DNA of 37,685 bases from a virus (lineage: Duplodnaviria > Caudoviricetes): positions 1 to 37,685 of IMG/VR virus record IMGVR_UViG_3300044806_000197, one strand, 5' to 3'. A model generated the notes under the pieces. That model searched no databases and had not been told where the DNA came from. It worked only from the letters and a program-made list of their open reading frames with translations. Positions 3,945 through 30,048 of the stretch are shown here, piece by piece. Within the stretch, counting starts at the first letter, position 1; every line of letters begins with the position of its first letter. A program made the translations under genes and the position numbers.

Positions 3945-5390
3945 TCACAATCCAAACCTCACCGTCGTCGCATTCACGCGGGTTGCGTTGATGGTTGCGC
4001 CGGGATTGCCGCCACCACCACCGCCTCCGTATTCATACGCCCCAATGTCCCAAGTGCTGCCCCGACTCACGCCTAAAATGTCCGTGGTGAAAACCGAACT
4101 GGGATAATCGGTGCCTGTCCCAAGTGTTCCACCACCGGGCGTCGGAGCGTAAACATTCCCAATGGTGTAACCCTGACTGGTTGCTGTTGCCGGAGATTGA
4201 ATTAGCGAGAAGCCCTCCGTGATTGTAACGGTGTTGTTTGTTGTTGCGTCACTAAGTCCAGCTCCGTTTCCGATGACGTGATTGTTGAACGCGACAAGCT
4301 CTGTCAGTCTATTGCCTGCGCCTCGGTTCACAATATGTATGCCACCCCAGTTATCACCATAATTGACAATGGTATTGTTAAAGCAAAACACCGTTCCTCC
4401 AGTGGCGTCATTCGTGCCGCCGTAGGGGTCAATCTCAATCGCCCGCTGGTCAGACATGACCCCATAAAACACATTGTTGTAAACGTAAACCGTGCGGAAG
4501 CAAGGATTGGGGTAGGCCATGTTCGCCCCGCCGTAAATGTCGCGGAATGTCGAATTGCGAATGTAGCCCACCAAATTCGTGAACAGCGATGGCTGTAAAT
4601 AGACACCATTCAAATGGTAGGTGAGGTCAAAGCTAGTAAAGGGATAGGAGATGTTCCACATGGCGTTGGAGTTGTAATCCAAGCAGAACAACACGGCACT
4701 CGAATTGTCATGGATGCGACTGTTTTGCACGGTGCCGACGCGCCGAATCGCCACCCCGTTCCAGCGGTTCGTATTGGCGGAATTTTCAATCTCGCAATCC
4801 GTCACCAGTGAAGTCGCTTCTTCATCGTTGCCATAGCTGAAAAAGATTCCCCCGTGGGCATCATCCGTGGCAATCGCTTCATCCAGTCTCCAACTGTGAA
4901 TATAACAGTTGGAAATGGTCAAATAGCTGGCGGTGCCGCCCGCGATGAGGCCCGCCCCGAAATTTGCAGAACTTGTGTGGCGCTTAATTTCCAGCCCGTC
5001 CAGGATGAGGTTGCCGCTCACCGACGCCAAATTAATCAAGGCCGCATTGGTGATATATTCACCATCGAACACCGGGCGAGTCCACGCGCCGCCGCTATAC
5101 CAATTATTTGTCATGCCGTAATAGTCGCGGTTGCCAGAAGTGCCGGTGGCGGCCAGGGTGAGCGGAAACGCAGCCTTCGGCCAAGTCACTCCGCCTTTGA
5201 AAATGAAACGATCGCCCGCCGCGTGCGAATAACTCCCCGTCCAGCCGTTCATGTATGGATGCCGCTGCCACGCCGCACCCGTGCTGGTGCCCGCATTGGC
5301 GTCCGCCCCGCCGCTGTAATCAATGTAATACGTCGCGGCATAAGCGCCAGTTACCAGCAGGTAGAGCAGAATAGAAGCGTTTCGTATCAT
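3945..5390 (-). CDS. Signal-peptide protein with right-handed beta-helix (pectin-lyase-like) and C-terminal DIGAYEY motif
   Basis: MIRNASILLYLLVTGAYA-ATYYID..G.DANAGTS..AAW; repeats such as NSRIHDN, YNNVFY, FNNTIVN; TDILGVSRGSTWDIGAYEY resembles choice-of-anchor Q. Confidence 0.8.
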   Translation of the reverse strand: MIRNASILLYLLVTGAYAATYYIDYSGGADANAGTSTGAAWQRHPYMNGWTGSYSHAAGDRFIFKGGVTWPKAAFPLTLAATGTSGNRDYYGMTNNWYSGGAWTRPVFDGEYITNAALINLASVSGNLILDGLEIKRHTSSANFGAGLIAGGTASYLTISNCYIHSWRLDEAIATDDAHGGIFFSYGNDEEATSLVTDCEIENSANTNRWNGVAIRRVGTVQNSRIHDNSSAVLFCLDYNSNAMWNISYPFTSFDLTYHLNGVYLQPSLFTNLVGYIRNSTFRDIYGGANMAYPNPCFRTVYVYNNVFYGVMSDQRAIEIDPYGGTNDATGGTVFCFNNTIVNYGDNWGGIHIVNRGAGNRLTELVAFNNHVIGNGAGLSDATTNNTVTITEGFSLIQSPATATSQGYTIGNVYAPTPGGGTLGTGTDYPSSVFTTDILGVSRGSTWDIGAYEYGGGGGGGNPGATINATRVNATTVRFGL

Positions 5391-6148
5391 TGTGGGTCAG
5401 CGTAAATTGCCGCAACCGAACCAGAATAATCTCCGGCATACACTCGGAAATCGTCCAACCTGCCGTTGTAGAATAAATCGTTCGATGCTCGTGCGCCGAC
5501 ATATAAAACATATGTTGCGAATGTTCTTGCCACACCCTTGGTATCAGTTCCTAGCGTTAGCGTCTGCTCGCTGCCATCTAGCCACGCCCTCACGTCACCA
5601 TTTGCGGATGAGTTGTCCAGCAAGACTAGGTAGTGATGCCATGCTCCTGTTGCTGGAATCGTCATGGCTTCAATCCTGTTGCCGGATGCGTTGTCCATGA
5701 GCCGAAGGTTAAGCACTCCCGCATCAATAAAGGCAGCGAAGCCATCTGGATTTGAGTTTACACTTTCGCTCGACTCAAAAATTATCTGCGTCCCAGCCGT
5801 GCTGTCCAGATAAAGCCAAAAGCTGACGGTCAGCTTGTTCGTCCCAAATGCAACCGTGTTGGTCGTCGCGGAGTCGTGGCTTGTGCCGTTAAAATCCAGT
5901 GCCCCGCCGCTGCCGCTCTTTCCTGTCACCCAACTTGCATCCGTAGTGCCGCCGTGCGTGGTGTCCGTGGCCGATGATGCCAGCGCCGTGCCGCTGCCCT
6001 CGTTTAATTTCCACCAGAGCAAATCGGGAGTCGGACTCGACGCCACCGCCTCCACCCTCCGACTCGCACCAATCAACGCCGGGCGCACCCCTTGGCCGAA
6101 ACAGTCAAGCGTCAGTAACAGTCCTAGAATCAGTGGGAAGGTTTTCAT
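5387..6148 (-). CDS. Signal-peptide protein with LamG / concanavalin A-like domain
   Basis: MKTFPLILGLLLTLDCFG-Q; WWKLNEGSG, GALDFNG, TVSFW, WHHY, WLDG, FYNGRLDDFRVY. Confidence 0.85.
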   Translation of the reverse strand: MKTFPLILGLLLTLDCFGQGVRPALIGASRRVEAVASSPTPDLLWWKLNEGSGTALASSATDTTHGGTTDASWVTGKSGSGGALDFNGTSHDSATTNTVAFGTNKLTVSFWLYLDSTAGTQIIFESSESVNSNPDGFAAFIDAGVLNLRLMDNASGNRIEAMTIPATGAWHHYLVLLDNSSANGDVRAWLDGSEQTLTLGTDTKGVARTFATYVLYVGARASNDLFYNGRLDDFRVYAGDYSGSVAAIYADPQ

Positions 6149-9100
6149 TTGCTCCAAGAAAAGATCATGTTGGTGTAAGTTCCACCGCCCGGTTTCCATA
6201 TCAGGCTGATGGTCGTCAGTGTGCCGTTGGTGAACGTGCGAGAGTCAAGGTGGTCGCTGGTATAAATGTTTGGGTGATTGGTGAATGTCACATCACCCGT
6301 CGCAAGCACCGTTAGTTCTGCGTATTGCTTGGCTGTATTGGGTGGGTCGCCATCAACAACGATGCCGGGTATTCCGCCAGTGACCGTGCCGAGCGAAATG
6401 TCGTAATTGTTGTTCATCGTAATATCGGTGTTGATGGTGTAAGCGTTTGTCCCTACTGCTAGGCCATATACAGTTAAGCTATCCATCTGCACGTCGCCAA
6501 TAACGAGCGTTCCGCTCCTGTTGTTTGTCACAATGTCGCTACCTGTGGCCGTCACAATTTCCGCAATCGTATCCCACTCCGTGTCGCGTGTGATGGTGGA
6601 TGCAATGCGGGCGTCGGCTACTGTGCCCACCGTGATCGCACTGCCGTTCAAGTTGTTCGTCGCGTGGGCGAGTTGAGCAGTAGTGACATCTCCTGCACTT
6701 GCTGTTACCCACTTTAAGCGATTCCCAGTGCGACTCATCACCATCCCATCCGATGCCGTAGCGTTGTTGGTGGCTAAAGTGGGATTACCCGTGTGCAATT
6801 CTATCGCAGGCCCACCAAACCCGACTGCGGATATTACTGGAATGGAGAATGTAATTGCTTCGTCAGTGCTCTGCCAATCGTCACCATCGTAACGGGCTAT
6901 TTCAGTGCCCGTGCTTTCATTGTAAAGAAACCCGGAAGGACCAACGTAAATGTCTTTATTGGTCAGATTGTTTGGAATCCGAGCTTCCTCAAGTGTTCCC
7001 GACGAGAAGAACGCCGTTGCGCTGTCGCCGGTTTGGGCCTGACCTGCGTTGGCTGCGTAGGTGATCGTGATGTCATCCGGGATGCGAGCATCTGCGATGT
7101 TTCCGACAAGGTTGGTCGCGTTCAGATTCGTGGCCAAACCAGCATCCCAATTTGTCACGGCGACAAAGTTCGTCACATACATCGTTGTGACATTCACGGT
7201 TGCCGCACTCAGCGTTCCTGTCGTGCTGATGTAACTCGCATTGGTGATGCCAAAATTGTTCATGTTCAAGTCGTTGGTTGCGGGGTTTTGCATACCCGTT
7301 CCGCCGCCACCCAACTGAGTGAAGTAGTTCGTCACGTCATCCCATGAATTGATTACGTTCGCACCCAAAGCAAAGTTGCTGGCCTTGACTGTGCCCGTGC
7401 CGTTCGTCATTCCAGACAGCAACGTGAACAACGCCGCTTGATTGGTCTGTTGAGCCGTGATCGCCAAGATGCCGGTTGCATTGGTCAAAGGCGCATTCAC
7501 AATCAGCATTTGAGCTTGGTTCGTTTGCTGCGCGGTGATCGCTCGGATGTTCGTCGCATTGGTGAGGTCAGTTACGTTCGTCACTTGAGAATAGGGTATG
7601 GCCGTCTGGCCAATGACAATCTTCACCAGTCCAGCGTTGTTCGAGCTACCCGCCAGCGAAATGTATGCGCCTGAGTTGACCTGCAAGTTTGTTGAAGCCG
7701 TGGAAAGGTTGACGTTGTTCGTCCCGATGGTCGTAACGGCATTGGTCGCACTCCCGCCCGCGCCAAGCGCCAGATCGTCCACCTTCTGAGCAACCTCTTG
7801 GATGGTATCGTCCCCGGTCGTGAGGTTTCCGTTAAACCCGGAGGCGTCCAAAGTGAGTGACCCGCCCGGTCCAGTGAATCCGGTGGCGGTGACTGTGCCT
7901 ACCACATCAACCGCAGTCAATGGATCAAGTGTTCCCACTCCCAATCGGCCTTGGGTAAGAATTGTTCCGTTAGTTGTTACTCTGAAATTATCATTCGTTC
8001 CAACGGTCAAAAGCGTCCCGACGTATGGAGTCAGATCACCTATCGACAGCGTACCGTTCCGCATCAAGACGTTCTGGGTTTCATGGTATCCCTCAAAAAC
8101 CGGAAGATAATTTGTGCCATTCCCGTTGAACAAACCCCAATATGGTGCAGACTCGTCCCAAATATCGAGTTTTACTCCATAGCCAGTATTAGCCCGCACA
8201 CCAACACCGCCCGAGAAGTGAGTCGGCGCATCGTTTGACCACGCTGTTTTAATCAAATCCACTTCGCTCGATGACACTGTGCTTACTAAAGCGGGGAGAT
8301 TTACTGAACCAAAACCCATGGCCGGGATGGATGAGTTGTTGAGAACAAGGCGAGTTGGGTTGTTTGAAATCAGCAGCGACCATCCTTGCATGTTTGTTCC
8401 AAAAGTATCATCAACCCGCGAATTGAGCAGTGAAAGATTGTCGCCACCAATAACAGTGATTGCATTCAATGAGTTGCTTTTGGGCAAGACATAGATTTGA
8501 GCCGTTGAGTGGAATGTGTTGGTAAATACGATTCCATCCAAAGTGTTTTGCTCGCACCCTCCAACAAAATCAGAATCGTAAAGATCAAGATAATATCCGT
8601 TGGCATTGGCATCCGACGCCATTCCTGAAAGACTGGAATAAATCCAAGACCCGCGCATCCCGTATCCACCGCTGCCACGAAAATAACAGGAGCGCAACGT
8701 CGCTGCATTGTTGGGCCAGATTGCCCACAGCCCATCGGAAACACTGTTGATGATGTAGCAGTCCTCAAGAACGGCATTGATAGTGAAAGCCATAACGATC
8801 CCGCGATACGCATTGAACGTGGTTAAGCCTTTCAACACTGGGGTAATGGCGTTCGTTCCAACCAAATCGAATGCTGCGGTATTTGATCCGCCAAAAGTGC
8901 TATAAGTAACGATTAGGTTTTCAAAGCCGAAGAAGTTGTCGATTCCAGTCAGAACTTCGACAATTCGGAATGTGCTGTTTGTTCCGGTATTCCAGATCAT
9001 CACCGAGCCATGAGAGTCGCCCCGGACTTGTGTGCCGTTCTTCACCAGCAGTGTATCACTGACAGCGTATTTTCCGGGCGGGAAATACACCAGAGAGCCT

Positions 9101-9717
9101 ACCGGCAATGATTCATAACCATCACCGACCGGAACGCTATCTAATGCATTCTGAATCGCAACCGTATCATCCAACCCATCATCGGGAATCGCCCCCCAAA
9201 ACCGCACATTGCTCTTGTCCCAAACATTGCTCGCACTCACCAGCGAACCATTCGTCAGGCCGAACGAGTTCAGGTTGCCGTCCGCCGTGAGGGGGAAGCC
9301 GCTGCCGGAGCCGCCATTTGTAATACCAGCCAGCAAAGCATCAACTTGGGTTGAAGTATAAAAGCTAGTGTTGTAGTTCGTGGAATTGATCAAGCCAGCC
9401 ACATCTAAAACCGCGTTGGTGTCAAATACTCCAAATGGAAAACTCCGTCCAGGACTTCCAGCTACGTCCAACCGATAAGACCCGGCCAAGACATTCGAGA
9501 AGTAAGCAATCCCGGAAGTGTCTGTGATCTTCGCAACCGAATCTCCAGCAATCAGCCACGGCGAAGCCACAACCGGGCCGGCAGTCGTCAAGGTAAGCCG
9601 CACCTGGCGCTTTTGGCTTGGCTCGCTGGTGAAGTTACGAGAATTGACTCGTAACGTCGTGGCGGTGGCATTCATCGACAGCAATAGGCAACCTAGCAGG
9701 GTAAGGATAGTTTTCAT
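6145..9717 (-). CDS. 1190-aa tail fibre / tailspike-like protein with signal peptide and pectate-lyase-3-type beta-helix
   Basis: MKTILTLLGCLLLSMNATA; NVRFWGAIPDDGLDDTVAIQNALD..VYFPPGKY; fibre-type repeats (IADARIP, LEEARIP, VADARIA; RLGVGT.DP). Confidence 0.8.
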   Translation of the reverse strand: MKTILTLLGCLLLSMNATATTLRVNSRNFTSEPSQKRQVRLTLTTAGPVVASPWLIAGDSVAKITDTSGIAYFSNVLAGSYRLDVAGSPGRSFPFGVFDTNAVLDVAGLINSTNYNTSFYTSTQVDALLAGITNGGSGSGFPLTADGNLNSFGLTNGSLVSASNVWDKSNVRFWGAIPDDGLDDTVAIQNALDSVPVGDGYESLPVGSLVYFPPGKYAVSDTLLVKNGTQVRGDSHGSVMIWNTGTNSTFRIVEVLTGIDNFFGFENLIVTYSTFGGSNTAAFDLVGTNAITPVLKGLTTFNAYRGIVMAFTINAVLEDCYIINSVSDGLWAIWPNNAATLRSCYFRGSGGYGMRGSWIYSSLSGMASDANANGYYLDLYDSDFVGGCEQNTLDGIVFTNTFHSTAQIYVLPKSNSLNAITVIGGDNLSLLNSRVDDTFGTNMQGWSLLISNNPTRLVLNNSSIPAMGFGSVNLPALVSTVSSSEVDLIKTAWSNDAPTHFSGGVGVRANTGYGVKLDIWDESAPYWGLFNGNGTNYLPVFEGYHETQNVLMRNGTLSIGDLTPYVGTLLTVGTNDNFRVTTNGTILTQGRLGVGTLDPLTAVDVVGTVTATGFTGPGGSLTLDASGFNGNLTTGDDTIQEVAQKVDDLALGAGGSATNAVTTIGTNNVNLSTASTNLQVNSGAYISLAGSSNNAGLVKIVIGQTAIPYSQVTNVTDLTNATNIRAITAQQTNQAQMLIVNAPLTNATGILAITAQQTNQAALFTLLSGMTNGTGTVKASNFALGANVINSWDDVTNYFTQLGGGGTGMQNPATNDLNMNNFGITNASYISTTGTLSAATVNVTTMYVTNFVAVTNWDAGLATNLNATNLVGNIADARIPDDITITYAANAGQAQTGDSATAFFSSGTLEEARIPNNLTNKDIYVGPSGFLYNESTGTEIARYDGDDWQSTDEAITFSIPVISAVGFGGPAIELHTGNPTLATNNATASDGMVMSRTGNRLKWVTASAGDVTTAQLAHATNNLNGSAITVGTVADARIASTITRDTEWDTIAEIVTATGSDIVTNNRSGTLVIGDVQMDSLTVYGLAVGTNAYTINTDITMNNNYDISLGTVTGGIPGIVVDGDPPNTAKQYAELTVLATGDVTFTNHPNIYTSDHLDSRTFTNGTLTTISLIWKPGGGTYTNMIFSWSK

Positions 9718-21807: not shown

Positions 21808-22162
21808 AAGGATATGTGGTGTTGAGTTGTTCCTGCCGCTCCTGACAGCCGCAGGTTCGGCCAAAGGTTGCGCGATACCATGCCCGATAAGCGTCTCCGC
21901 CGATAGGCCCAATGATGCGCGCCGTGGTGTCACCGATGCCAGTCTCGCCTAAAACGCGGAGCAAAGCAAGCCGCTGTGCCCAGTCCGGCCATTTGTTGAG
22001 GGGTTGAGGCCCGCGATACTTGGCACAGAGCGATGCCCAAACTGCACGACTAACGAGCAGCATGTCACCGACGACCCTGCCCGATGCCATCACGTCATCG
22101 AGATACCCAGGCGGGCGATAGCTAGCCTTGGCTTGTAGGGCGGATATTGGGATTTGCTTCAT
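21791..22162 (-). CDS. Hypothetical protein with C-terminal CGC motif
   Basis: RPPGYLDDV..TGIGDT.ARII..TCGCQERQEQLN. Confidence 0.7.
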   Translation of the reverse strand: MKQIPISALQAKASYRPPGYLDDVMASGRVVGDMLLVSRAVWASLCAKYRGPQPLNKWPDWAQRLALLRVLGETGIGDTTARIIGPIGGDAYRAWYRATFGRTCGCQERQEQLNTTYPYEILS

Positions 22163-23385
22163 GGTGTCACGCAGTCAAGTGGGATGGTTTGAAGCAGAAC
22201 CGAGGTAACGTAGGGGTTTAGGAAGTCGGAATAGGCGACATACATTTGGTTGAAACCGCACTCCACCAGACGGGCCGAACCTGCTACGTGATGCTCATAT
22301 CCACTATCAATGACGGCGAGATAAGAAAGGAAGTCAGAGCCAGCGTAACCCTGCATTGCCAGAATGTTAAGGCATAAATCGGAGTGAGTGTAATAGTAAA
22401 CCTTGGAATGAACCGCCCAAATGTAGTTTGCCTTGTCGCTGAGCATCCCCGAAAAGGCCAAGCCAACGGAAAGCAACCCACCCCAAGGGCAGTTTGCATT
22501 GATCAGTTCGCGAGGCAAACCATCTTCAACGACGGCATACGGATCGGTTGAACCCACCGGGAAACTTGACAGGGTTGGATCGGGAATAACTAACTCAAAA
22601 CCCGCCGTGTCGTCTCCTGTGTAAGTCCATCCGTCATGCTGCCATATTTCGCCCGCCGCGAATGTGAACGCCGCACCGTTGAATTGGGTTGGCAGGGTGA
22701 ACAAGTCGAGCAATGAAAGCGCCAAGACCTGGCAATCCCCATCCGTGTGCGGCTTAGAGTAAGTGAAAGTCTCACGATAGATGAAGTCACGAATCAAACC
22801 GCCGCCCAAGTCTTGGGAGACGCCAAGAATTTCAAAGAAATATCCATCCTCTGTAACGGTCAATGTGCGCTTGTGGAAGGTGAAATTTCCCATGTAGGTT
22901 GGGCTTCCAAGCGCCGGAGCGTAACCTGCATCAGGACTGCCAGATTCACTGACGTAGGTTGTCGGGATTGGGGTATCGCCCGGTTCAACCATCGTGCGGC
23001 TAGCACTGTTAATAACTCCTTCACTGGTGCTTGTTCCTTCCTCTAGAAAGATCGCGCCAGTTTTCTTTTCCAGTTCATACCAGCTTGAATCGGTTCGTAG
23101 GTATCCATCAACTGTGCTTTGCTCAATAACCCAATCGGCGCGAAGATAACGGGTTGAGTTTCCTACCTGTGAAACTACTCCGGTATTGGCAGCGGTGATT
23201 CCATGCGTCAAGTATCCGCCCAACACCAATCCGGTGTAATCGAGTGGCGGTTCGAACTCCTCAACGCCTTCGTCGAGCGTGAAATTGAGCGGTTCAAATC
23301 CTTGGTGACGAAGTTTTACAAAGGCGGTGACGGTGGAGTCCCCTGTCACCGGCGCGCAGCAACAGTTTATGAACGCACCGCTCAT
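22159..23385 (-). CDS. Acidic putative tail-tip protein with N-terminal CCC
   Basis: MSGAFINCCC; 408 aa; ATGA-coupled. Confidence 0.6.
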   Translation of the reverse strand: MSGAFINCCCAPVTGDSTVTAFVKLRHQGFEPLNFTLDEGVEEFEPPLDYTGLVLGGYLTHGITAANTGVVSQVGNSTRYLRADWVIEQSTVDGYLRTDSSWYELEKKTGAIFLEEGTSTSEGVINSASRTMVEPGDTPIPTTYVSESGSPDAGYAPALGSPTYMGNFTFHKRTLTVTEDGYFFEILGVSQDLGGGLIRDFIYRETFTYSKPHTDGDCQVLALSLLDLFTLPTQFNGAAFTFAAGEIWQHDGWTYTGDDTAGFELVIPDPTLSSFPVGSTDPYAVVEDGLPRELINANCPWGGLLSVGLAFSGMLSDKANYIWAVHSKVYYYTHSDLCLNILAMQGYAGSDFLSYLAVIDSGYEHHVAGSARLVECGFNQMYVAYSDFLNPYVTSVLLQTIPLDCVTP

Positions 23386-23666
23386 GTTTCCGGGTCTGTT
23401 GTCAGAGCAGTTGTAACCCAGGGCGAGCGGAGCATGAAGCAGTAGCGCGGATCTCCCGTGGCTGGATCGCATCCGATGGTTTCTCTGATTTCCAACTCCT
23501 GCCCCATGGATGTTCCCGGGCTGGCCGGGTTTGCGCCGGGGTCTTCACCCAGCTTGAGCGTGACGCTGCCCCAACTGGTAACGGCTGCGCCCGTGGTATC
23601 GTCAACCACTTCCAAGACGATCTGCTTATTGGTTGCGTCGAGCCGGGCTTTTACGATATTGGCCAT
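23382..23666 (-). CDS. Hypothetical (tail-associated) protein
   Basis: 94 aa, coupled within the operon. Confidence 0.6.
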   Translation of the reverse strand: MANIVKARLDATNKQIVLEVVDDTTGAAVTSWGSVTLKLGEDPGANPASPGTSMGQELEIRETIGCDPATGDPRYCFMLRSPWVTTALTTDPET

Positions 23667-23669
23667 AAA

Positions 23670-25514
23670 TCACGCGCTGGCGAACACGGCAAACTCTGCG
23701 CTTCCTCCGCTGCCGTGGCTGGTGTTCTCTGCCGGGGTCCTGCCGTTCAAGTCAACCGCCGTCCCTCCGGTGACGTAGTTGGCCGTCTCCCGAAGTAATG
23801 GATTGAACCACTCAAACCGAGGGCGGCTGTATTGCATCAATTCAAACATCTGCGCGGCGGAATTGCCTTGTGGCGGTCCAAAGCTGACTTCGGTATGTCC
23901 ATTTCCGTAATGCTTCACAATTGACTGTAGCTGCGCTTTCATCGTCGCCCAGGCTGTCAGACCCCCGGATAGGTTCAGGACGTTCCCAAAGCTAACCAAG
24001 GTCGTTGGCTCAGCCTCCACGCGAACGTCTTGACCCTCGTATTGCAGGGTGGCAAGACTGGTGTAAACATCCTTGGCAATACCATTGAGGAACGTGCCGA
24101 CTCCTGCCGTGATGGAAACCAAGCCGGGAACATCTTCACCGGGTATGACCGATGCTAAGGTTGAGTATGTTGTCGTGGTCGCGTCGGTGATCTGAATCTT
24201 TACCGCAATTTCCTCATCAACTTTCTTCGTGGTTCTGAGCGCGGTGACGCTACCCGTTGCCGCCGCTGCCGTGGTGTAAACCTCATAGCTTGCCTTGCCG
24301 ATGATCGTTACCTCTTTGACCGTCATGCCTGTCCAGCTTGGGAGCGGGCCTTCCTTCAACTCGCGGGGATAGGTTGCAAGGCTTACAGTTGCCCCGGCTT
24401 GGTCTTTGACCGTCACCGTTCCGGCTGCGATAGCCAGACTACCCGCTCTTACCTTGTCACTGGCCAGCTTTGGACTCTTGAGCTTCCACCAATCCAGCCG
24501 GGTTGCGTCGGTAGCGTGTGTGGCATCAACCGTCTCCGTAACCACATCCGCGCTTACTGAAATGGTTTGCTGGCCCTGCAAGTCTATGAATTGAGTCAGG
24601 ACGTCGAGGCCGTAGTCTGGATCGCTGGCATGACCTTGCCCATTTGGCCCGTATTTGTCCGCAAGATACACAACCCAATTCTGCCCGGTGTCGCTGCCGG
24701 TGATCTTATACCATATGACCACGGCCCGAGGCTTCAAGTCGTCACGGGCCACGATGTCAAGCGAGACGTGGTTTGTCCCGTTGTGCAATACCATGGTGAC
24801 AGGGCTGGCCTCCTGTTGGGCGCGGGTCTTGAAGTTGAAGGTTGGGGTTGGGACAGCCGCAACGTCGGTTGTGTAATCCACAACTAGATTCACGTCAGGG
24901 CTTAACTCCAAGCACTTCTTGATTACTGCCGCGCACATGACCTGTCGGCATTGGTAGCTTGGAAGGTCTAAGGTTATTCCGCTGGTGTCTCCGATTATGA
25001 ACGGTTGATCCATCCCCTGAGCCGCAAACGCATCAATGACGAACTGAAGAACGGCGGCGATCTGTTCCCCGCTGTTGTAGGTGGACAGAACCCCGGCGTT
25101 TAGCCATGTGAACAGCATCAACTCAGGAACAGCTTTGAGCATCAACGCCGAACCATCCACGTTGCGGGACTGAAAGAATTGCTGATAAGGAGTCGTCTCT
25201 AGGAAGTGCCAAGCATCTGCAAATGAATACCTCACCCCGAAGGCTGAACCGGAAGATGAAACCAAGTGTTGCATCCGGTAGCCAATGAAGTCCACTTGAC
25301 CACTGGCCCAGGTTGTTCCGCTTCCGGTCCTTCCGCTCCGAATAATGACCTTGCCACGGTAAGGAAATACTGCCGCGTCTGTGATTACGTCACCAAGGCG
25401 AACCGCTGAGAAGACAGACGTTGCTAGGTTGCGAAGTTGAAGCGTGGCTGAATCAAAAGCAAACCCCCACGCGGCTAAATCCTTTTCGACGGTGTTGTAT
25501 TCGAGGGTGATCAT
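23670..25514 (-). CDS. Putative tail-tip hub / central baseplate protein
   Basis: 614 aa after the tape-measure candidate; C-terminal QLQSIVKHYGNGHTEVSFGPP is typical of hub proteins. Confidence 0.6.
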   Translation of the reverse strand: MITLEYNTVEKDLAAWGFAFDSATLQLRNLATSVFSAVRLGDVITDAAVFPYRGKVIIRSGRTGSGTTWASGQVDFIGYRMQHLVSSSGSAFGVRYSFADAWHFLETTPYQQFFQSRNVDGSALMLKAVPELMLFTWLNAGVLSTYNSGEQIAAVLQFVIDAFAAQGMDQPFIIGDTSGITLDLPSYQCRQVMCAAVIKKCLELSPDVNLVVDYTTDVAAVPTPTFNFKTRAQQEASPVTMVLHNGTNHVSLDIVARDDLKPRAVVIWYKITGSDTGQNWVVYLADKYGPNGQGHASDPDYGLDVLTQFIDLQGQQTISVSADVVTETVDATHATDATRLDWWKLKSPKLASDKVRAGSLAIAAGTVTVKDQAGATVSLATYPRELKEGPLPSWTGMTVKEVTIIGKASYEVYTTAAAATGSVTALRTTKKVDEEIAVKIQITDATTTTYSTLASVIPGEDVPGLVSITAGVGTFLNGIAKDVYTSLATLQYEGQDVRVEAEPTTLVSFGNVLNLSGGLTAWATMKAQLQSIVKHYGNGHTEVSFGPPQGNSAAQMFELMQYSRPRFEWFNPLLRETANYVTGGTAVDLNGRTPAENTSHGSGGSAEFAVFASA

Positions 25515-26776
25515 GGACGCTGCGACTTGTTTTGCAGTTCAGCCTTTAGCTTGGCCAACTCTTCCGGGGTAACAATACCATCCTTGAAGATTGCAACCAA
25601 CAATTTGCGAAACGCCTCACGCTCTGAAACTTTTATGAACCGAATGATCTGCTCGAAGTCTTGACTGTCTTGAGCAGTTGCCGCGTGGCCCTCGCTCCAG
25701 GCCTTTGCCGCCGCTCCTGCACCGGGCATTAACACGCTGCGCGCCGGGCCGAATCCTCCTTCTGAAAGCTGACCCCTGATTCCGCGCCGCCGTTCTTCGT
25801 CGGAAGATGCAACCCCACCCTGCAAGGCCAAGATGCGGGCATTGTTGGACGTGAATAATCCTTTGCTGATTCCAGCCGCTTGATCTAAGTCGCCTTGTCG
25901 GTTTGCCCAACGGCCAAGAGTTGCGCCGCCACCGCTTATGACTTGCTCGTTGGCGTCGAAAGCTGACTGTGCGGCGGCTGTTCTACGAGCCAACGCAAGC
26001 TCAATAGTCTTGGGTGACATCATGTTGAACGTCCCTAAGATTGCATCGCTAGTGGTTGGGCTTGCGGCGTCATCAATTGCTTTTCGCAACGCCTCTCGCT
26101 TGCTCTGTGCGTCCTTCACCCGGTCTTGGGTGGACAAGGCGTTCGGATCGTAGCGGTTCAGCGCGGCCGCTTCCGCTGCCGCATTAGCCGCGTTCTCCAA
26201 CCGTGCCGCCTCGCTTCGGCGCTGACTCAATTCATCTTCCGGGCCGGTAAAAGATTTACCTTGGAATGGATCGTTTTCTTTCCGGGAAGCGTCCATATCG
26301 CGAAGATAGTTTGCCATATCTTGCGCGATGCCTTGGGTTCGGGTTCGCATATCGTCCAAACTAGCCAAGTCTAAACCGCGCAACTTACCTGCCATTTCTT
26401 CGATCTTATCGTTTAGAGTCTTGAAGTGTCCTACAACCGTCCCTATACCCACGGCAAGCGCTGTTACACCAAGCGCCGGAAGGCTGAACGCACCCATCGC
26501 AAGCTGCCCAAGTGAACCAAATTGACTAGCGAGCAATCCCATCGCACGTCGCAATCCTTCAATCCGTCCATGACCCTTTTTCCCGGCGTCTTCAAGCCTT
26601 TTTCCGAACCCCTCCGCTTGGCGTTGAGCCGCTGCAATCTGCTTGTCAAGGTCGCCTGTGCTGACCCCGGTTGCGATGGCTTGTCGCTTGAGTTCTTTGA
26701 GAGCCGATACAGATTCGGTTGCACCGTCAAGTTCAGCCTGTAGTCGGATAAGGATATCGAAATTTGAATCGGCCAT
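25511..26776 (-). CDS. Putative tape measure protein (short)
   Basis: FDILIRLQAELDGA N-terminus, Ala/Gln-rich helical body, hydrophobic LPALGVTALAVGIGTVV segment. Confidence 0.65.
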   Translation of the reverse strand: MADSNFDILIRLQAELDGATESVSALKELKRQAIATGVSTGDLDKQIAAAQRQAEGFGKRLEDAGKKGHGRIEGLRRAMGLLASQFGSLGQLAMGAFSLPALGVTALAVGIGTVVGHFKTLNDKIEEMAGKLRGLDLASLDDMRTRTQGIAQDMANYLRDMDASRKENDPFQGKSFTGPEDELSQRRSEAARLENAANAAAEAAALNRYDPNALSTQDRVKDAQSKREALRKAIDDAASPTTSDAILGTFNMMSPKTIELALARRTAAAQSAFDANEQVISGGGATLGRWANRQGDLDQAAGISKGLFTSNNARILALQGGVASSDEERRRGIRGQLSEGGFGPARSVLMPGAGAAAKAWSEGHAATAQDSQDFEQIIRFIKVSEREAFRKLLVAIFKDGIVTPEELAKLKAELQNKSQRP

Positions 26777-26815
26777 AGTGCCTTTCAACCTTGCTCAATT
26801 AGGCTGTTCTGTCAA

Positions 26816-27010
26816 TCATTGATGCGCGTTCCTACGTTTCCTGGTCTGCTCGCACAGTTCCCGCTCCTTCATGACCCGTTCCCTCATCAGTTCCAAGACC
26901 ACCATTGCCCCGGTCTCGACCGCGGCTTGGATGATTGCTAGGTCAGTGGTGCGGTGATTTGTCTTTAGGTTCATGGCTTCGGATTGGAGACGGGCTTTGA
27001 GGGTGTTCAT
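26816..27010 (-). CDS. Hypothetical protein
   Basis: MNTLKARL...; start may be 27010 or 27019. Confidence 0.55.
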   Translation of the reverse strand: MNTLKARLQSEAMNLKTNHRTTDLAIIQAAVETGAMVVLELMRERVMKERELCEQTRKRRNAHQ

Positions 27011-27020
27011 GGGTTGCATA

Positions 27021-27078
27021 TGCTAACTGTCAGTGCAACGAACCAGCGCGGCGCCGGTCGCTGACTTCTGCGTTAGGT
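27021..27078 (+). mobile_element. attC site 1 (58 nt)
   Basis: TGCTAAC ... AGT(G)CAACGA(A)C / GTCGCTGACT ... GTTAGGT; imperfect R''. Confidence 0.75.
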
Positions 27079-27299
27079 GCTCCAATAGCCGCCTTGAGTT
27101 TGTGCCAGGCTTCCATGTGTTGAGCGGACGGCCTTGAGTTCTCGAAGTATTCGCGGGCGATGTCGTGTCGGACGTAGCGCACGCCAGCCCCATTGTCGGC
27201 CAGTCCATACACATCGTGCGGCATGTTGCTGCCCACATCGAGCACCACTGCGTCCGGCCAGTTTCTTCCATCTGGCCATGCCTTTGTTTTCAGTTTCAT
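27030..27299 (-). CDS. Cassette gene 1, hypothetical; C-terminus encoded by attC1
   Basis: MKLKTKAWPDGRNWPD...APNAEVSDRRRAGSLH*. Confidence 0.65.
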   Translation of the reverse strand: MKLKTKAWPDGRNWPDAVVLDVGSNMPHDVYGLADNGAGVRYVRHDIAREYFENSRPSAQHMEAWHKLKAAIGAPNAEVSDRRRAGSLH

Positions 27300-27312
27300 A
27301 GATTTTATTCGC

Positions 27313-27422
27313 ACCTAACCACGCGCTGCTGCGAACCCCGCGCAACGCCCTCGGATCAATCGGTAACGTCTTGCCCGCTCGGCAGCCCCGGTGTGCGGGG
27401 TCGCAGAGCTTGGTCGTTAAGC
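27313..27422 (+). mobile_element. attC site 2 (110 nt)
   Basis: R'' ACCTAAC, GCT(G)CTGCGA(A)CCCCGC / GCGGGGTCGCAGAGC, R' GTTAAGC. Confidence 0.88.
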
Positions 27423-27641
27423 ACTTTTCGGCTTTTGAGCGTATTCGAGTTTGGCGATGTGCTTTTCCATTGCGAACACCACGTCAGGCGCGAAGCCTTG
27501 AGTGTGTTGCGCGGGTGCTGTGTGCAGGACGCACATAAAGCTGTCCATGACCTCTACTTTGGCGGACAGTATTTCGTTTTTCCGGCGCAGTTGAGTTATC
27601 TCGCGCTGGGCTTCTTTGAGTGTTTCGAGTAGTTCGGACAT
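27417..27641 (-). CDS. Cassette gene 2, coiled-coil hypothetical protein
   Basis: 74 aa exactly filling the space between attC2 and attC3; stop lies in the R' box. Confidence 0.7.
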   Translation of the reverse strand: MSELLETLKEAQREITQLRRKNEILSAKVEVMDSFMCVLHTAPAQHTQGFAPDVVFAMEKHIAKLEYAQKPKSA

Positions 27642-27645
27642 ACGT

Positions 27646-27769
27646 GCTTAACAATTCGATGCAGAGAACAGCCGCCCCGCTGGGCAGTTCTCACGCATCA
27701 GGTTTTTGGATGTTGGCAGGGCTTTCAAAGTTTGTCTCCGGCGGCTGTCTCTGATCTCAGTCGTTACAC
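27646..27769 (+). mobile_element. attC site 3 (124 nt)
   Basis: R'' GCTTAAC, GAT(G)CAGAGA(A)CAGCCGCC / GGCGGCTGTCTCTGATC, R' GTTACAC. Confidence 0.85.
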
Positions 27770-27906
27770 GCCTGTTGCATCGCTTGAAATACATCAGCCA
27801 CTGCCCGCGCTCCGTTCCCGATCAAGTCCTGACCAACACTGGGGCGAAGCTGTTTAAGGGCCGCATCCTTGGCTGTTAAAACGTTTGATTTTGTGGTTGT
27901 GGTCAT
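27757..27906 (-). CDS. 49-aa hypothetical protein ending inside attC3 (not in ORF track)
   Basis: MTTTTKSNVLTAK...MQQACND*; ATGA-coupled to the replication gene. Confidence 0.5.
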   Translation of the reverse strand: MTTTTKSNVLTAKDAALKQLRPSVGQDLIGNGARAVADVFQAMQQACND

Positions 27907-28754
27907 AGTGCGCCCGCTAGTTTGGTTTGTAGTTCCTTAATCTCGCCTCGAAGTGCCCGATACTGCTCACGATAAGCCGGATCATCCCAGGTCGTGCTAA
28001 GAGCATCGGTTGTGGAGTGTTCGTTCCTGAGTTGGTCCGCAAGTTTCTGTTTCTGTTCCATGACGGTCTTTAGGTTGAATACGGATGGGGTGGTTACTGC
28101 CGTTCCGTTCTTTTGGGCCGAGTAAGCATTGAGCTTCCAATTAGCCATTGCCCCCGGCCAAGACTTCATCGGATTCTTCCCGACCCGCCAGCCATTCGAT
28201 TCGTAGTAGTTGAAGAACTTCTCGGCCTCCAAGTCGGAAAGGCCGATCTTCGCGGCTTGGAGTTTGATTGCTTCAATTGAAGGCTTTTGAAAGCGCGGGA
28301 GCGAAGCGACCTTCTTCTTTTCCTCTTTTCTATTCTTCTCTCCTCTCTTCTCTTCTCCTCTCCTCTCCTCTCCTCTTACCGTAGAAACTTCCGAGACACT
28401 AGCTAGTCTCTCGCTAGTCTTTTTGTAATATCCTCTGTCTAAACCTTTTGCATAATCGCTTTGCATCTTGTCCCAGCCTGGTATTACAAGCGATTGGTCA
28501 CTGATTGTGATATACCCCGCATGTTGCAGCAACCCCAGGCACTGGTTGAAAATGCCTGGCGAGATATTCAGCTTGCGAGAAAAGCCCAACAGTCGGAAGT
28601 CTTTAGTGTCCCACGAGAGACTAGCTAGTCTGTTCTTAGATGCTTCCGAGAGTATGAGAAGCCAGACGCTGGCGGCGAGAGGCTGTTCTGACAGGCAGTA
28701 TTGCATCCCGGCTGAATCGAGGTTGTCGTTGTAGAATTTGAACCAGTCAGCCAT
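27903..28754 (-). CDS. Replication initiator / replisome organiser
   Basis: MADWFKFY N-terminal domain, EERRGEEKRGE linker, FQKPS..AEKFFNYYESNGWRVGKNPMKSW C-terminal domain. Confidence 0.8.
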   Translation of the reverse strand: MADWFKFYNDNLDSAGMQYCLSEQPLAASVWLLILSEASKNRLASLSWDTKDFRLLGFSRKLNISPGIFNQCLGLLQHAGYITISDQSLVIPGWDKMQSDYAKGLDRGYYKKTSERLASVSEVSTVRGEERRGEEKRGEKNRKEEKKKVASLPRFQKPSIEAIKLQAAKIGLSDLEAEKFFNYYESNGWRVGKNPMKSWPGAMANWKLNAYSAQKNGTAVTTPSVFNLKTVMEQKQKLADQLRNEHSTTDALSTTWDDPAYREQYRALRGEIKELQTKLAGAL

Positions 28755-28769
28755 ATCATTCCCAAACAC

Positions 28770-28858
28770 TCAGTTCCGCAGCTTCGCCGGTGAGAGTCCG
28801 ATCCAAACGCGCTAGAGGGTAGCGTCTGGCAGGAAGGTCGCCAAAGCTGCGGAACTGA
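28770..28858 (-). promoter_or_regulatory. Structured 5' leader of the replication gene
   Basis: Perfect 15-bp inverted repeat TCAGTTCCGCAGCTT / AAGCTGCGGAACTGA enclosing an inner hairpin. Confidence 0.6.
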
Positions 28859-29084
28859 ATCTTCGTTGAGTAGTGCATTATCGTTACGAGCCTCTCACGA
28901 CCCGGCCCTTTCGAGCACCGCCACCCTACACCATCCCACCGCACGGCGCAAATCTATTTTTGGGCCGGGGCGGGACAGGGTGGGACACGTCATGTCCTAC
29001 CGCTTATTTGGAATTGTTCTAAATCCAGATAACCTTAGCAGATTTATGTTGAGAATTAGAATAGATTGAATCTGCAAAACTGGC

Positions 29085-29112
29085 TTGACGAATAAATGTT
29101 AACCCGTATAGT
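29085..29112 (+). promoter_or_regulatory. Sigma70-type promoter of the rightward arm
   Basis: TTGACG-N16-TATAGT with AT-rich upstream sequence. Confidence 0.6.
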
Positions 29113-29143
29113 GGTGCGTAGGTAAGAACAGAACAGAAACAAT

Positions 29144-29377
29144 ATGAACCTCTCAAATCTGATCAAAGGTAAAGACCGATTCCCGCTTGAAGCCGGCCTC
29201 GCCATGCAAGCCACGCAACTCCAAGGTTGGGCCAAGAAACTAACCCCGGAAGCCATGGCCCTAGTTCAAGAGGAAGCCTGCCTCCAGAACCAGACCTTGC
29301 CTGACGATGCGACCGGATATGACGTGTGGCGCGGGGACAGTATAACGCTGTTCGTTGTGGAAATGGATTTGAAATAG
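29144..29377 (+). CDS. Hypothetical protein
   Basis: 77 aa, first gene after the promoter. Confidence 0.65.
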   Translation: MNLSNLIKGKDRFPLEAGLAMQATQLQGWAKKLTPEAMALVQEEACLQNQTLPDDATGYDVWRGDSITLFVVEMDLK

Positions 29378-29406
29378 ACGGTAAACAAAAACCACAAAAC
29401 AAAATT

Positions 29407-30048
29407 ATGACATTCAAAGAACTGCAAGACAAGATTTGGACACAAATCGAAACCGACTGGCATCAACACAAAAACGGAGGTGGATGGGTGAATAAATCGG
29501 CTAAGGTTGATGAGTCTGCCTTTGTTGGTGATGGCGCGATTGTATGGGGAATAGTTTCCGGGAACGCTCGGGTTTACGGGGACGCTTGGGTTTACGGGGA
29601 CGCTTGGGTTTCCGGGAACGCTCGGGTTTACGGGGACGCTTGGGTTTACGGGAACGCTCAGGTTTACGGGGACGCTCAGGTTTACGGGAACGCTCAGGTT
29701 TACGGGAACGCTCAGGTTTACGGGGACGCTCAGGTTTACGGGGACGCTCAGGTTTACGGGAACGCTCAGGTTTACGGGGACGCTTGGGTTTCCGGGAACG
29801 CTTGGGTTTACGGGAACGCTCGGGTTTACGGGGACGCTTGGGTTAAACCTGTCTTGTTCCTGTTAGACTCTCGCGGCCACGGATGCACAAATTGCAAGCA
29901 CGGATGGCTCAAGATCGGTTGCGAGGAACACACCTTCAAAGATTGGACTGATAGGTTTCCTGCCATTGCTCGGAAGCACAACCTAACCGAATCCGAGGAA
30001 GTCGAGTATCGCGCCATCGTTGAACTGTTCTGCAAGATTGGAAAGTAA
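29407..30048 (+). CDS. Hexapeptide-repeat (left-handed beta-helix) protein
   Basis: 16x G[ND]A[RWQ]V[YSK]; C-terminal LKIGCEEHT..DW; start moved to ATG 29407. Confidence 0.85.
   Translation: MTFKELQDKIWTQIETDWHQHKNGGGWVNKSAKVDESAFVGDGAIVWGIVSGNARVYGDAWVYGDAWVSGNARVYGDAWVYGNAQVYGDAQVYGNAQVYGNAQVYGDAQVYGDAQVYGNAQVYGDAWVSGNAWVYGNARVYGDAWVKPVLFLLDSRGHGCTNCKHGWLKIGCEEHTFKDWTDRFPAIARKHNLTESEEVEYRAIVELFCKIGK
29560..29847 (+). repeat. 16 x 18-bp tandem repeat
   Basis: GGG RAC GCT (CGG/TGG/CAG) GTT T(A/C)C units read directly; last unit ends AAA. Confidence 0.95.

What the first reader, a model, noticed from the sequence alone, without database searches (positions are those of the whole stretch)
27013..27769. 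Integron cassette array (three attC sites, no integrase) inside a phage operon, with genes reversed
Seen: three imperfect palindromes of 58, 110 and 124 nt with AAC...GTT ends, and L boxes carrying the same two unpaired bases (top-strand G and A). The cassette rule holds over 9 bp twice: GTTAGGTGC (27072) is the reverse complement of GCACCTAAC (27311), and GTTAAGCAC (27416) of GTGCTTAAC (27644). Established: this cross-complementarity results from IntI inserting circular cassettes. Both genes are antisense to the attC top strand but sense to the phage operon; one ends in an R' box and the other reads through attC1. No tyrosine recombinase is visible. Inference: the phage borrows host IntI to gain and shuffle small genes, that is, a phage-adapted pool of reversed cassettes.
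Basis: partly seen in the sequence, partly recalled or inferred. Interest (0 to 1): 0.87.

Follow-up and report, generated by a model that had tools for sequence, protein, structure and literature searches.

The report
Phage integron array with reversed genes
This phage carries two small genes packaged as integron-type cassettes that also turn up, bounded at the same points, in other genomes, and they face the opposite way to bacterial cassette genes, which likely lets phages swap accessory genes with an integron enzyme that this genome fragment does not encode.

Summary
Confirmed. The three hairpins are real attC sites. A model trained only on bacterial integron attC sites ranks them first to third in the whole contig, at the stated coordinates, and sets their polarity. 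Both cassettes are mobile units: cassette B reappears in other contigs with homology starting at the left G|TT crossover and ending in the right R' box, and cassette A has relatives in other arrays. The genes are reversed, as in related phage arrays (family hits 25 of 75 on the bottom strand, 0 of 75 on the top). Host-phylum chromosomal arrays are canonical. Phage attC sites also carry a stop codon in one fixed frame (215 of 221). Corrections: the contig is about 45% complete; 9 of 49 related viral records encode their own IntI, placed just past an attI-like site; so 'borrows host IntI' is unproven, and IntI from another phage fits equally well. A weak attI-like site lies at 26806. No excision was seen. 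Phage CALINs are published (Qi 2023); the reversed layout was not found in my searches. This scan has found it before on other DNA.

The parts
26790..26812 (+). Weak attI-like candidate, putative crossover G|TT at 26806/26807. It is the first AAC on the bottom strand after the orf67 stop and lies 29 nt before the next ATG, where intI starts in phage integrons.
   Evidence: Rank 10 of 1447 AAC sites, 3.0 bits, with a profile from 39 array-end sites. 14 of 16 identical to the array end in L077. Against: its R' matches the attC1 R'' at only 3 of 7 positions.
26816..27019 (-). orf67 (a database record starts it at the second ATG, 64 aa). Lies between the attI-like site and attC1 but is not a clean cassette.
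   Evidence: Pieces of a variant in run X1 change flank at 26816 and 27012, not at the crossovers.
27021..27078 (+). attC1, 58 nt, spacers 4 and 5; left end likely altered. Holds the stop codon of ORF A.
   Evidence: Near-identical sites in runs X4 and X6 match from 27030 onward and have a normal 5-nt spacer.
27073..27416 (+). Cassette A (344 bp, includes attC2)
   Evidence: 9-nt end complementarity. A relative in phage L068 has its own complementary ends. A variant in run X1 abuts an attI-like sequence exactly at 27072.
27030..27299 (-). ORF A, 89 aa, unknown function. Reversed; crosses the crossover with AAC in frame and stops 42 nt inside attC1.
   Evidence: (3 homologues, 77-88% identity). 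No family hit.
27313..27422 (+). attC2, 110 nt, canonical 5/6 spacers
   Evidence: Similar sites with other flanks in L050 and in runs X1, X3, X6.
27417..27763 (+). Cassette B (347 bp, includes attC3)
   Evidence: Homology to L001 (96% over 344 nt) and L002 (88% over 350 nt) starts at the left GTT and ends in the attC3 R' box.
27417..27641 (-). ORF B, 74 aa, unknown function. Reversed; its stop codon is the TAA of the R' box.
   Evidence: (11 proteins listed, 59-96% identity). No family over cut-off.
27646..27769 (+). attC3, 124 nt, canonical 5/6 spacers; arms resemble attC sites beside intI in a Verrucomicrobiae MAG (L105)
27757..27906 (-). orf49, the phage gene that leads into the array. Crosses the attC3 crossover with AAC in frame and stops 6 nt later.
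27903..28769 (-). Replication initiator-like gene upstream in the same leftward gene run
   Evidence: Weak PHROG hits to replication initiation and DnaD-like families. Its C-terminal relative also precedes the array in L068.

Best explanation
This is a short array of integron gene cassettes in a tailed phage, with the genes on the attC bottom strand and no integrase in the contig, likely derived from a phage form of the integron and likely rearranged by an IntI supplied in trans. Shown by sequence: the attC anatomy and polarity; cassettes A and B occur elsewhere with boundaries at the crossovers; each attC travels with the body on its left; related phage arrays share the reversed layout; where a phage has intI, it starts just past an attI-like site and points the same way as the cassette genes. 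Inferred: a phage early transcript runs along the bottom strand through the array towards attI and, in the full form, on into intI. Only reversed genes would be read, and the newest cassette would be last rather than first. The attC bottom strand supplies a stop in the AAC frame, so a gene that runs across the crossover would end cleanly whichever attC follows it after a reshuffle. IntI would excise cassettes by attC x attC recombination on the folded bottom strand and insert circles at attI or another attC, as for known integrons (PMC5027507, PMC2727003). A reversed cassette inserted normally into a host integron would face its promoter and stay silent, which would keep the phage and host pools apart. 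Here intI is missing from its usual place, so the enzyme would come from a co-infecting or resident IntI-bearing phage or from the host's own integron; the data do not choose between them. The host is likely a member of Verrucomicrobiota.
For: Sites; covariation in 105 viral sites, 12 of 13 stem pairs with double changes (alignment fitted to the model). Mobility; cassette B body is 237 nt in the window, L001, L002, L005 and L011 with different neighbours. Reversed rule, cassettes with 7/7 end match: viral 90 reversed, 14 canonical, 66 unclear of 170; bacterial intI-adjacent 6, 40 and 11 of 57; by locus 37 of 47 viral reversed versus 13 of 14 bacterial canonical. Independent check on 75 of 82 viral cassettes of 300 nt or more: PHROG hits 25 of 75 on the bottom strand, 0 of 75 on the top. 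Frame lock: 57 of 58 read-through ORFs have AAC in frame; a stop lies inside the attC in that frame in 215 of 221 non-redundant viral sites versus 129 and 126 in the other frames; bacterial 49, 50, 41 of 83. Phage integrons: IntI-like gene in 9 of 49 viral records, 3 of 17 near-complete ones; L002 has cassette B, an attI-like site and intI over the TIGR02249 cut-off; attI-like ends in 9 of the 14 near-complete IntI-less records. A host-side enzyme is available: IntI in 39 of 151 genomes of the likely host phylum.
Against: No recombination or expression data. The contig is about 45% complete. attC1 is atypical, and the orf67 segment breaks the cassette rule (3 of 7). The attI-like site is weak. 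Bottom strands fold better than top strands only for attC1. The array order is the same in the runs that hold this phage, three of which may be its source. No close relative with an empty or reordered site was found. Viral loci were picked by attC patterns designed on phage-type sites and include related phages, so counts are not independent; longest-ORF calls left 66 of 170 viral cassettes unclear and called 14 canonical. The bacterial control is small (14 loci). Viral IntIs are not one clade: the tree needs 6 label changes, at least 3 forced by supported branches.
Confidence: 0.6

Rival explanations
1. Frozen relic. The cassettes were placed by IntI in an ancestor that had intI; the gene was lost and the array no longer moves. 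The genes are now ordinary phage accessory genes.
For: attC1's left end is altered and the first segment breaks the cassette rule. The attI-like site is weak. Same order in all runs that hold the phage.
Against: attC2 and attC3 are intact with 9-nt end matches. Cassette B and its attC are 96% identical to a copy in an unrelated array, and 198 nt of cassette A are identical in a run from another study that holds little else of the region, both pointing to recent exchange. 14 of 17 near-complete related records lack intI yet keep arrays.
Confidence: 0.2
2. The phage encodes its own IntI in the unsequenced half of its genome, so this is a complete phage integron split across the assembly gap.
For: The contig is linear and about 45% complete. 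9 of 49 related records have IntI-like genes.
Against: In the 13 intI genes inspected, the gene starts just past the array end (9 by matched cassette end, 4 by eye). That position here holds a 425-aa gene with no recombinase hit.
Confidence: 0.12
3. The units spread by homologous or illegitimate recombination between similar attC repeats during phage co-infection, with no integrase involved.
For: attC arms of this family are similar across phages. Phage mosaicism is common (own knowledge).
Against: Left boundaries fall at the G|TT even where the left neighbour is a dissimilar attC, an attI-like site or no att site. 170 of 220 viral inter-attC bodies have 7/7 end complementarity, the mark of insertion from a circle.
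Confidence: 0.05
4. The genes are not really reversed: the sites recombine on the other strand, so the functional polarity is the opposite of the assigned one.
For: Top strands of attC2 and attC3 fold slightly better than bottom strands.
Against: The bacteria-trained model picks the minus strand for all three sites. attC3, not attC2, travels with gene B. Unpaired bases and the G after AAC sit where canonical bottom strands have them (PMC2727003 passages).
Confidence: 0.02
5. Chance hairpins or terminators.
For: Folding energies are not exceptional.
Against: Model ranks; 0 of 100 shuffles match the two-arm pattern, which was drawn from attC2 and attC3 themselves; exact boundaries in other genomes.
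Confidence: 0.01

Closest known systems
CALINs and integrons in phage genomes (Qi et al. 2023, PMC9892861; read parts 1-4 of 7 of the text, and term-searched its one held supplement)
   Same: Two or more attC sites without intI in a phage. Their phage attC bottom strands recombined with IntI1 (5 of 6 sites). Methyltransferase cargo is also common in the related arrays here (11 of 25 annotated cassettes).
   Different: The text describes typical cassette structure for TJE1 and PH101 and divergent attC sites in one phage. It does not describe genes reversed against attC, a frame-fixed stop inside attC, a retained attI, or phage IntI co-oriented with the cargo. Its figures and Supplementary File S1 were not seen and could show gene directions.
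Canonical integrons: intI, attI, Pc, attC cassette array (PMC5027507, PMC4889954, PMC2727003; passages read)
   Same: attC anatomy, bottom-strand polarity, G|TT crossover, end complementarity. In relatives with intI, the gene lies beyond attI on the bottom strand as usual.
   Different: Cassette genes point towards attI and intI instead of away. Expression would come from a phage operon at the far end, not from Pc. No intI in this contig.
SALINs and attG insertions (bioRxiv 10.1101/2022.09.11.507474; passages read)
   Same: Small attC clusters far from intI can arise by IntI acting in trans at non-att sites.
   Different: Related phage arrays end in an attI-like site (41 of 61 viral array ends have a matched cassette end, nearly all at a non-attC site), so they look like trimmed integrons rather than stray insertions.
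Inverted-integrase integrons (as defined in a methods passage of PMC13323075)
   Same: intI and cassette genes end up on the same strand.
   Different: There intI is flipped to the attC strand. Here intI keeps its usual side and the cassette genes are flipped.

Membership tests
attC site | R''-L''...L'-R' inverted boxes with conserved AAC/GTT and an unpaired central spacer | tested here: met
   attC1 has a 4-nt spacer, rare among viral sites (3 of 202).
attC site | Extrahelical bases on the L'' arm of the bottom strand | tested here: met
   C and T in all three. C in place of G costs little in published assays (PMC2727003); it is also the usual base in the bacterial control (24 of 29).
attC site | Match to an attC covariance model | tested here: met
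   Own models from bacterial sites. The IntegronFinder model itself was not available.
attC site | Bottom-strand recombination by IntI | not testable with these tools
   Needs an assay.
Gene cassette | Unit bounded by G|TT crossovers, complementary ends, found in other contexts | tested here: met
   Cassettes A and B. Not met for the orf67 segment.
Canonical gene cassette | ORF on the top strand, ending at its own attC | tested here: not met
   Both conserved ORFs are on the bottom strand.
CALIN | At least two attC sites | tested here: met
   Three sites.
CALIN | No intI nearby | tested here: met
   No PF00589 match in the contig, which extends 9.9 kb and 27 kb from the array; the genome is incomplete.
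Complete integron | intI gene beside the array | tested here: not met
Complete integron | attI site | tested here: inconclusive
   Weak candidate at 26806.
Complete integron | Pc promoter driving the top strand | tested here: inconclusive
   A sigma-70 scan of 25400-29500 found 4 weak sites, none next to the attI candidate; chance level 2.1.

The most novel reading that the evidence does not exclude
Phages of Verrucomicrobiota run their own integron system. Reversed cassettes, attC hairpins that double as coded gene ends, and phage-specific IntI clades form a shared gene pool that phages can read but host integrons cannot. Most phages keep only attI and the array and use IntI as a public good from the minority that encode it. 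This locus would be an active, integrase-free client of that system.
Probability: 0.4. Interest if true: 0.85.

Novelty: new variant of a known kind. Interest (0 to 1): 0.66.

Why it matters
Integrons are treated as bacterial devices whose cassette direction is fixed so that Pc can express them. A phage form with systematically reversed cargo shows that the same recombination sites can be rewired to a different promoter logic and can take on a coding role. It offers a site-specific route for the small-gene mosaicism of phage early regions, including methyltransferases that are likely anti-restriction. It also makes testable predictions: which IntI acts on these sites, whether reversed cassettes are silent in host integrons, and how new cassettes are made. 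This particular locus is a modest example (two genes of unknown function), but its cassette boundaries are unusually well documented by relatives.

Tried and rejected
Close relatives of the phage: single-protein scans of viral contigs with ORF A, ORF B and the 425-aa gene found nothing; no match among annotated phages. So no empty-site or reordered strain could be compared. Reads: only assembled contigs were available. No joint showing excision, a circle or the empty site in the 5 runs laid (X1, X3, X4, X5, X6); contigs drop rare variants, so this shows nothing. No RNA holder listed. Two joints inside attC2 come from other attC sites with different loops, not from deletions. Cassette B was not found in 401 genomes of the likely host order (no positive control). 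None of 34 cross-locus cassette homologies involved the 57 bacterial cassettes; weak, because bacterial cassettes are diverse. One narrow attC pattern found nothing. A MAFFT alignment of 26 bacterial attC sites of all lengths misaligned one arm and was dropped; 16 short sites were used instead. L107 was kept out of model training because a window-derived pattern had found it. Function of ORFs A and B: no usable Pfam, PHROG, NCBIfam or Atlas hit. Folding stability did not separate the strands. Entry frame at R'' shows no bias across viral cassettes, so a general coupled-translation rule at the gene start was not supported. The idea that all viral IntIs are one clade was rejected. Passages of PMC8618304 and of 10.64898/2026.09.14.751636 held nothing relevant.

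Full report
Setting. The window is a whole 37,685-base virus record, linear, about 45% complete by CheckV. It encodes terminase, portal, major capsid and neck proteins on the minus strand and small early-type genes on the plus strand. The array lies in the minus-strand run, between a replication initiator-like gene with a 49-aa ORF and a 425-aa gene. No tyrosine recombinase was found in the contig. Runs that hold the region are freshwater metagenomes; three may be its source.

The sites. A structural scan found the three sites as the best of 6 candidates in the window and as the only ones under stricter rules. For a test that does not lean on the window, I took DNA beside intI genes in bacterial genomes, built a covariance model from 16 short attC bottom strands and searched the whole contig. 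The three sites were the top 3 of 24 hits, at exact coordinates, on the minus strand (22.3, 20.8, 18.3 bits; next 12.9). A model from 87 bacterial sites gave 40.1, 31.7 and 21.1 bits. E-values from these models are rough. Against: folding energies are ordinary, and only attC1 folds better on its bottom strand. attC1 has a 4-nt spacer, and near-identical sites in other contigs match it only from 27030 onward, so its left end is likely altered.

The cassettes move. ORF B has 11 listed homologues, and its alignment fetched 10 metagenome loci and 2 viral loci. In L001 and L002, DNA homology starts at the GTT at 27416 and ends in the attC3 R' box, with unrelated sequence on both sides (96% and 88%). 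attC3 travels with gene B and attC2 does not, which confirms the polarity. The body is 237 nt in the window, L001, L002, L005 and L011. Not every homologue is a clear cassette: L006 and L012 show no attC. ORF A has 3 homologues. A 61% relative in phage L068 sits in an array downstream of a similar initiator gene and has its own 9-nt complementary ends. In run X1, a variant of cassette A abuts an attI-like sequence exactly at 27072, and sites like attC1-3 are followed by other sequence at or within a few bases of the GTT in several contigs. These contigs may come from other phages; they show mobility of the units, not rearrangement in this phage.

Reversed genes are the rule in related phages. 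Two attC patterns fetched 72 viral loci. With model hits, and counting only cassettes whose ends match 7 of 7, longest-ORF calls gave 90 reversed, 14 canonical and 66 unclear of 170 viral cassettes, against 6, 40 and 11 of 57 bacterial ones. For 300 nt or more the counts were 47/9/26 and 0/37/6. By locus, 37 of 47 viral loci were mostly reversed (8 ties, 2 canonical) and 13 of 14 bacterial loci were canonical. As an independent check I scanned the longest ORF of each strand for the first 75 of 82 long viral cassettes against PHROGs: 25 hits on the bottom strand (11 DNA methyltransferases, 4 PAPS reductase-like, 1 HNH, 1 repressor, 1 RNA ligase, 7 unknown) and none on the top. The viral loci were selected by phage-type patterns and include related phages, so these are not independent counts.

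The hairpins carry a coding signal. Of 90 reversed ORFs, 58 run across the crossover, 57 of them with AAC in frame; 15 stop on the TAA of the R' box and 17 stop earlier. After dropping pattern-matched sites and clustering at 80%, 215 of 221 viral attC bottom strands hold a stop in the AAC frame, against 129 and 126 in the other frames. Bacterial sites show no bias (49, 50, 41 of 83; 18, 22, 14 of the 34 long ones). The window fits: orf49 and ORF A cross with AAC in frame and stop 6 and 42 nt inside, and ORF B stops on the TAA. I infer that this lets a gene end cleanly whichever attC follows it. No frame bias was seen at the gene start.

Where the integrase is. Of 49 viral records searched whole, 9 have an IntI-like gene (5 over the TIGR02249 cut-off); among 17 records at least 90% complete, 3 do. 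L002, a contig with a Mu Gam-like gene, carries cassette B in an array that ends at an attI-like site 29 nt before an intact intI pointing the same way as the cassette genes. The same layout was seen for 13 intI genes inspected (9 by a matched cassette end, 4 by eye). In a tree of 55 IntIs (rows under 230 aligned residues or with a stop left out), L002 groups at 100/100 with three viral IntIs, one on a Mu-like contig binned in a MAG (L097) and one in a Verrucomicrobiae MAG beside non-phage-looking genes (L106), apart from the sampled chromosomal IntIs. Other viral IntIs fall elsewhere, so there is more than one origin or an unresolved tree. Nine of the 14 near-complete IntI-less records keep an attI-like end. 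In the window, the first bottom-strand AAC after orf67 ranks 10 of 1447 with an array-end profile and lies 29 nt before the next ATG. It scores weakly, its R' does not match attC1's R'', and an orf67 variant changes flank at other points, so it stays a candidate. The usual intI slot holds another gene, which makes an intI in the missing half less likely. IntI occurs in 39 of 151 genomes of the likely host phylum, so the host could also supply it. Host assignment is inference: a cassette B protein named from a Verrucomicrobiota MAG, 4 of 6 genome hits to an attC2 pattern in MAGs of that phylum (at least three of the six loci look phage-like), and attC3-like arms in L105.

Mechanism. Shown: anatomy, polarity, unit boundaries, family-wide reversal, stop-frame bias, and the array-attI-intI order in relatives. 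Taken from published work: bottom-strand recombination and its link to cassette direction (PMC5027507 and PMC2727003, passages), IntI acting on distant CALINs as a proposal (PMC4889954, passages), and IntI1 recombining phage attC sites (PMC9892861). Inferred: transcription from the phage operon along the bottom strand, action of an IntI in trans, silence of reversed cassettes in host integrons, and present-day activity. No excision was observed.

Novelty. Phage CALINs are published (17 in 10,705 genomes, PMC9892861; text parts 1-4 of 7 read, one supplement term-searched; figures and File S1 not seen). Eight literature searches returned no paper on reversed phage cassettes, but the library lacks most subscription papers, and bioRxiv supplements were closed. 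This scan has noted the same layout before on other DNA (62 notes matched; more). Those notes gave me the leads on frame locking and phage-encoded IntI, which I then tested; they are not independent support. Verdict: a real feature, a new variant of a known kind, interest 0.66.

Noticed in passing
L001:464-480: Cassette B's stop codon is followed directly by the next gene's ATG, with neither an attC nor an attI-like motif: either an attC lost cleanly between two cassettes or an insertion at a non-att site.
   Followed up: partly
L067 (array ends at three places): The same attI-like sequence occurs three times within one viral array, as if the attI region were duplicated or carried along during rearrangement.
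   Followed up: no
L106:8900-10041 (G003:C69): An IntI of the phage-type clade with an attI-like site sits in a Verrucomicrobiae MAG beside large genes that do not look like phage genes; no attC hit in the 10 kb fetched. A possible host-resident source of this enzyme.
   Followed up: partly
L107 (G002:C5) and L002: Both IntI-bearing arrays lie beside Mu Gam-like genes, and L107 also has a Mu-type transposition gene, so transposable phages may be carriers of the full integron. The L107 contig is binned in a Polyangiaceae MAG, perhaps wrongly.
   Followed up: partly
L068:2499-2825 and many viral loci: Some cassette genes appear to start inside the loop of their own attC and read out through L'' and R''. 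The window's genes do not; they start 8-20 nt after R'', in frame behind its TAA/TAG.
   Followed up: partly
window 27648-27698 (-): A 16-codon ATG ORF inside attC3 ends on the TAA of R'', 6 nt before the ATG of gene B; it could deliver ribosomes to gene B.
   Followed up: no
L016:4944-6095 and L020:1140-2009: Reversed-type arrays in MAG contigs lie next to tyrosine recombinase genes that were not typed as IntI or not.
   Followed up: no
window 29326-30048 (+): 240-aa protein with seven YdcK beta-solenoid repeat matches at the start of the rightward gene run.
   Followed up: no
window 5387-9717 (-): A 1190-aa protein with a pectate lyase-like domain and a 270-aa LamG/ConA-like protein, likely receptor-binding or depolymerase tail parts.
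   Followed up: no
window 22159-26788 (-): A second block of large, unannotated genes (437, 614 and 425 aa) lies upstream of the terminase, between it and the array, an unusual place if they are tail genes.
   Followed up: no
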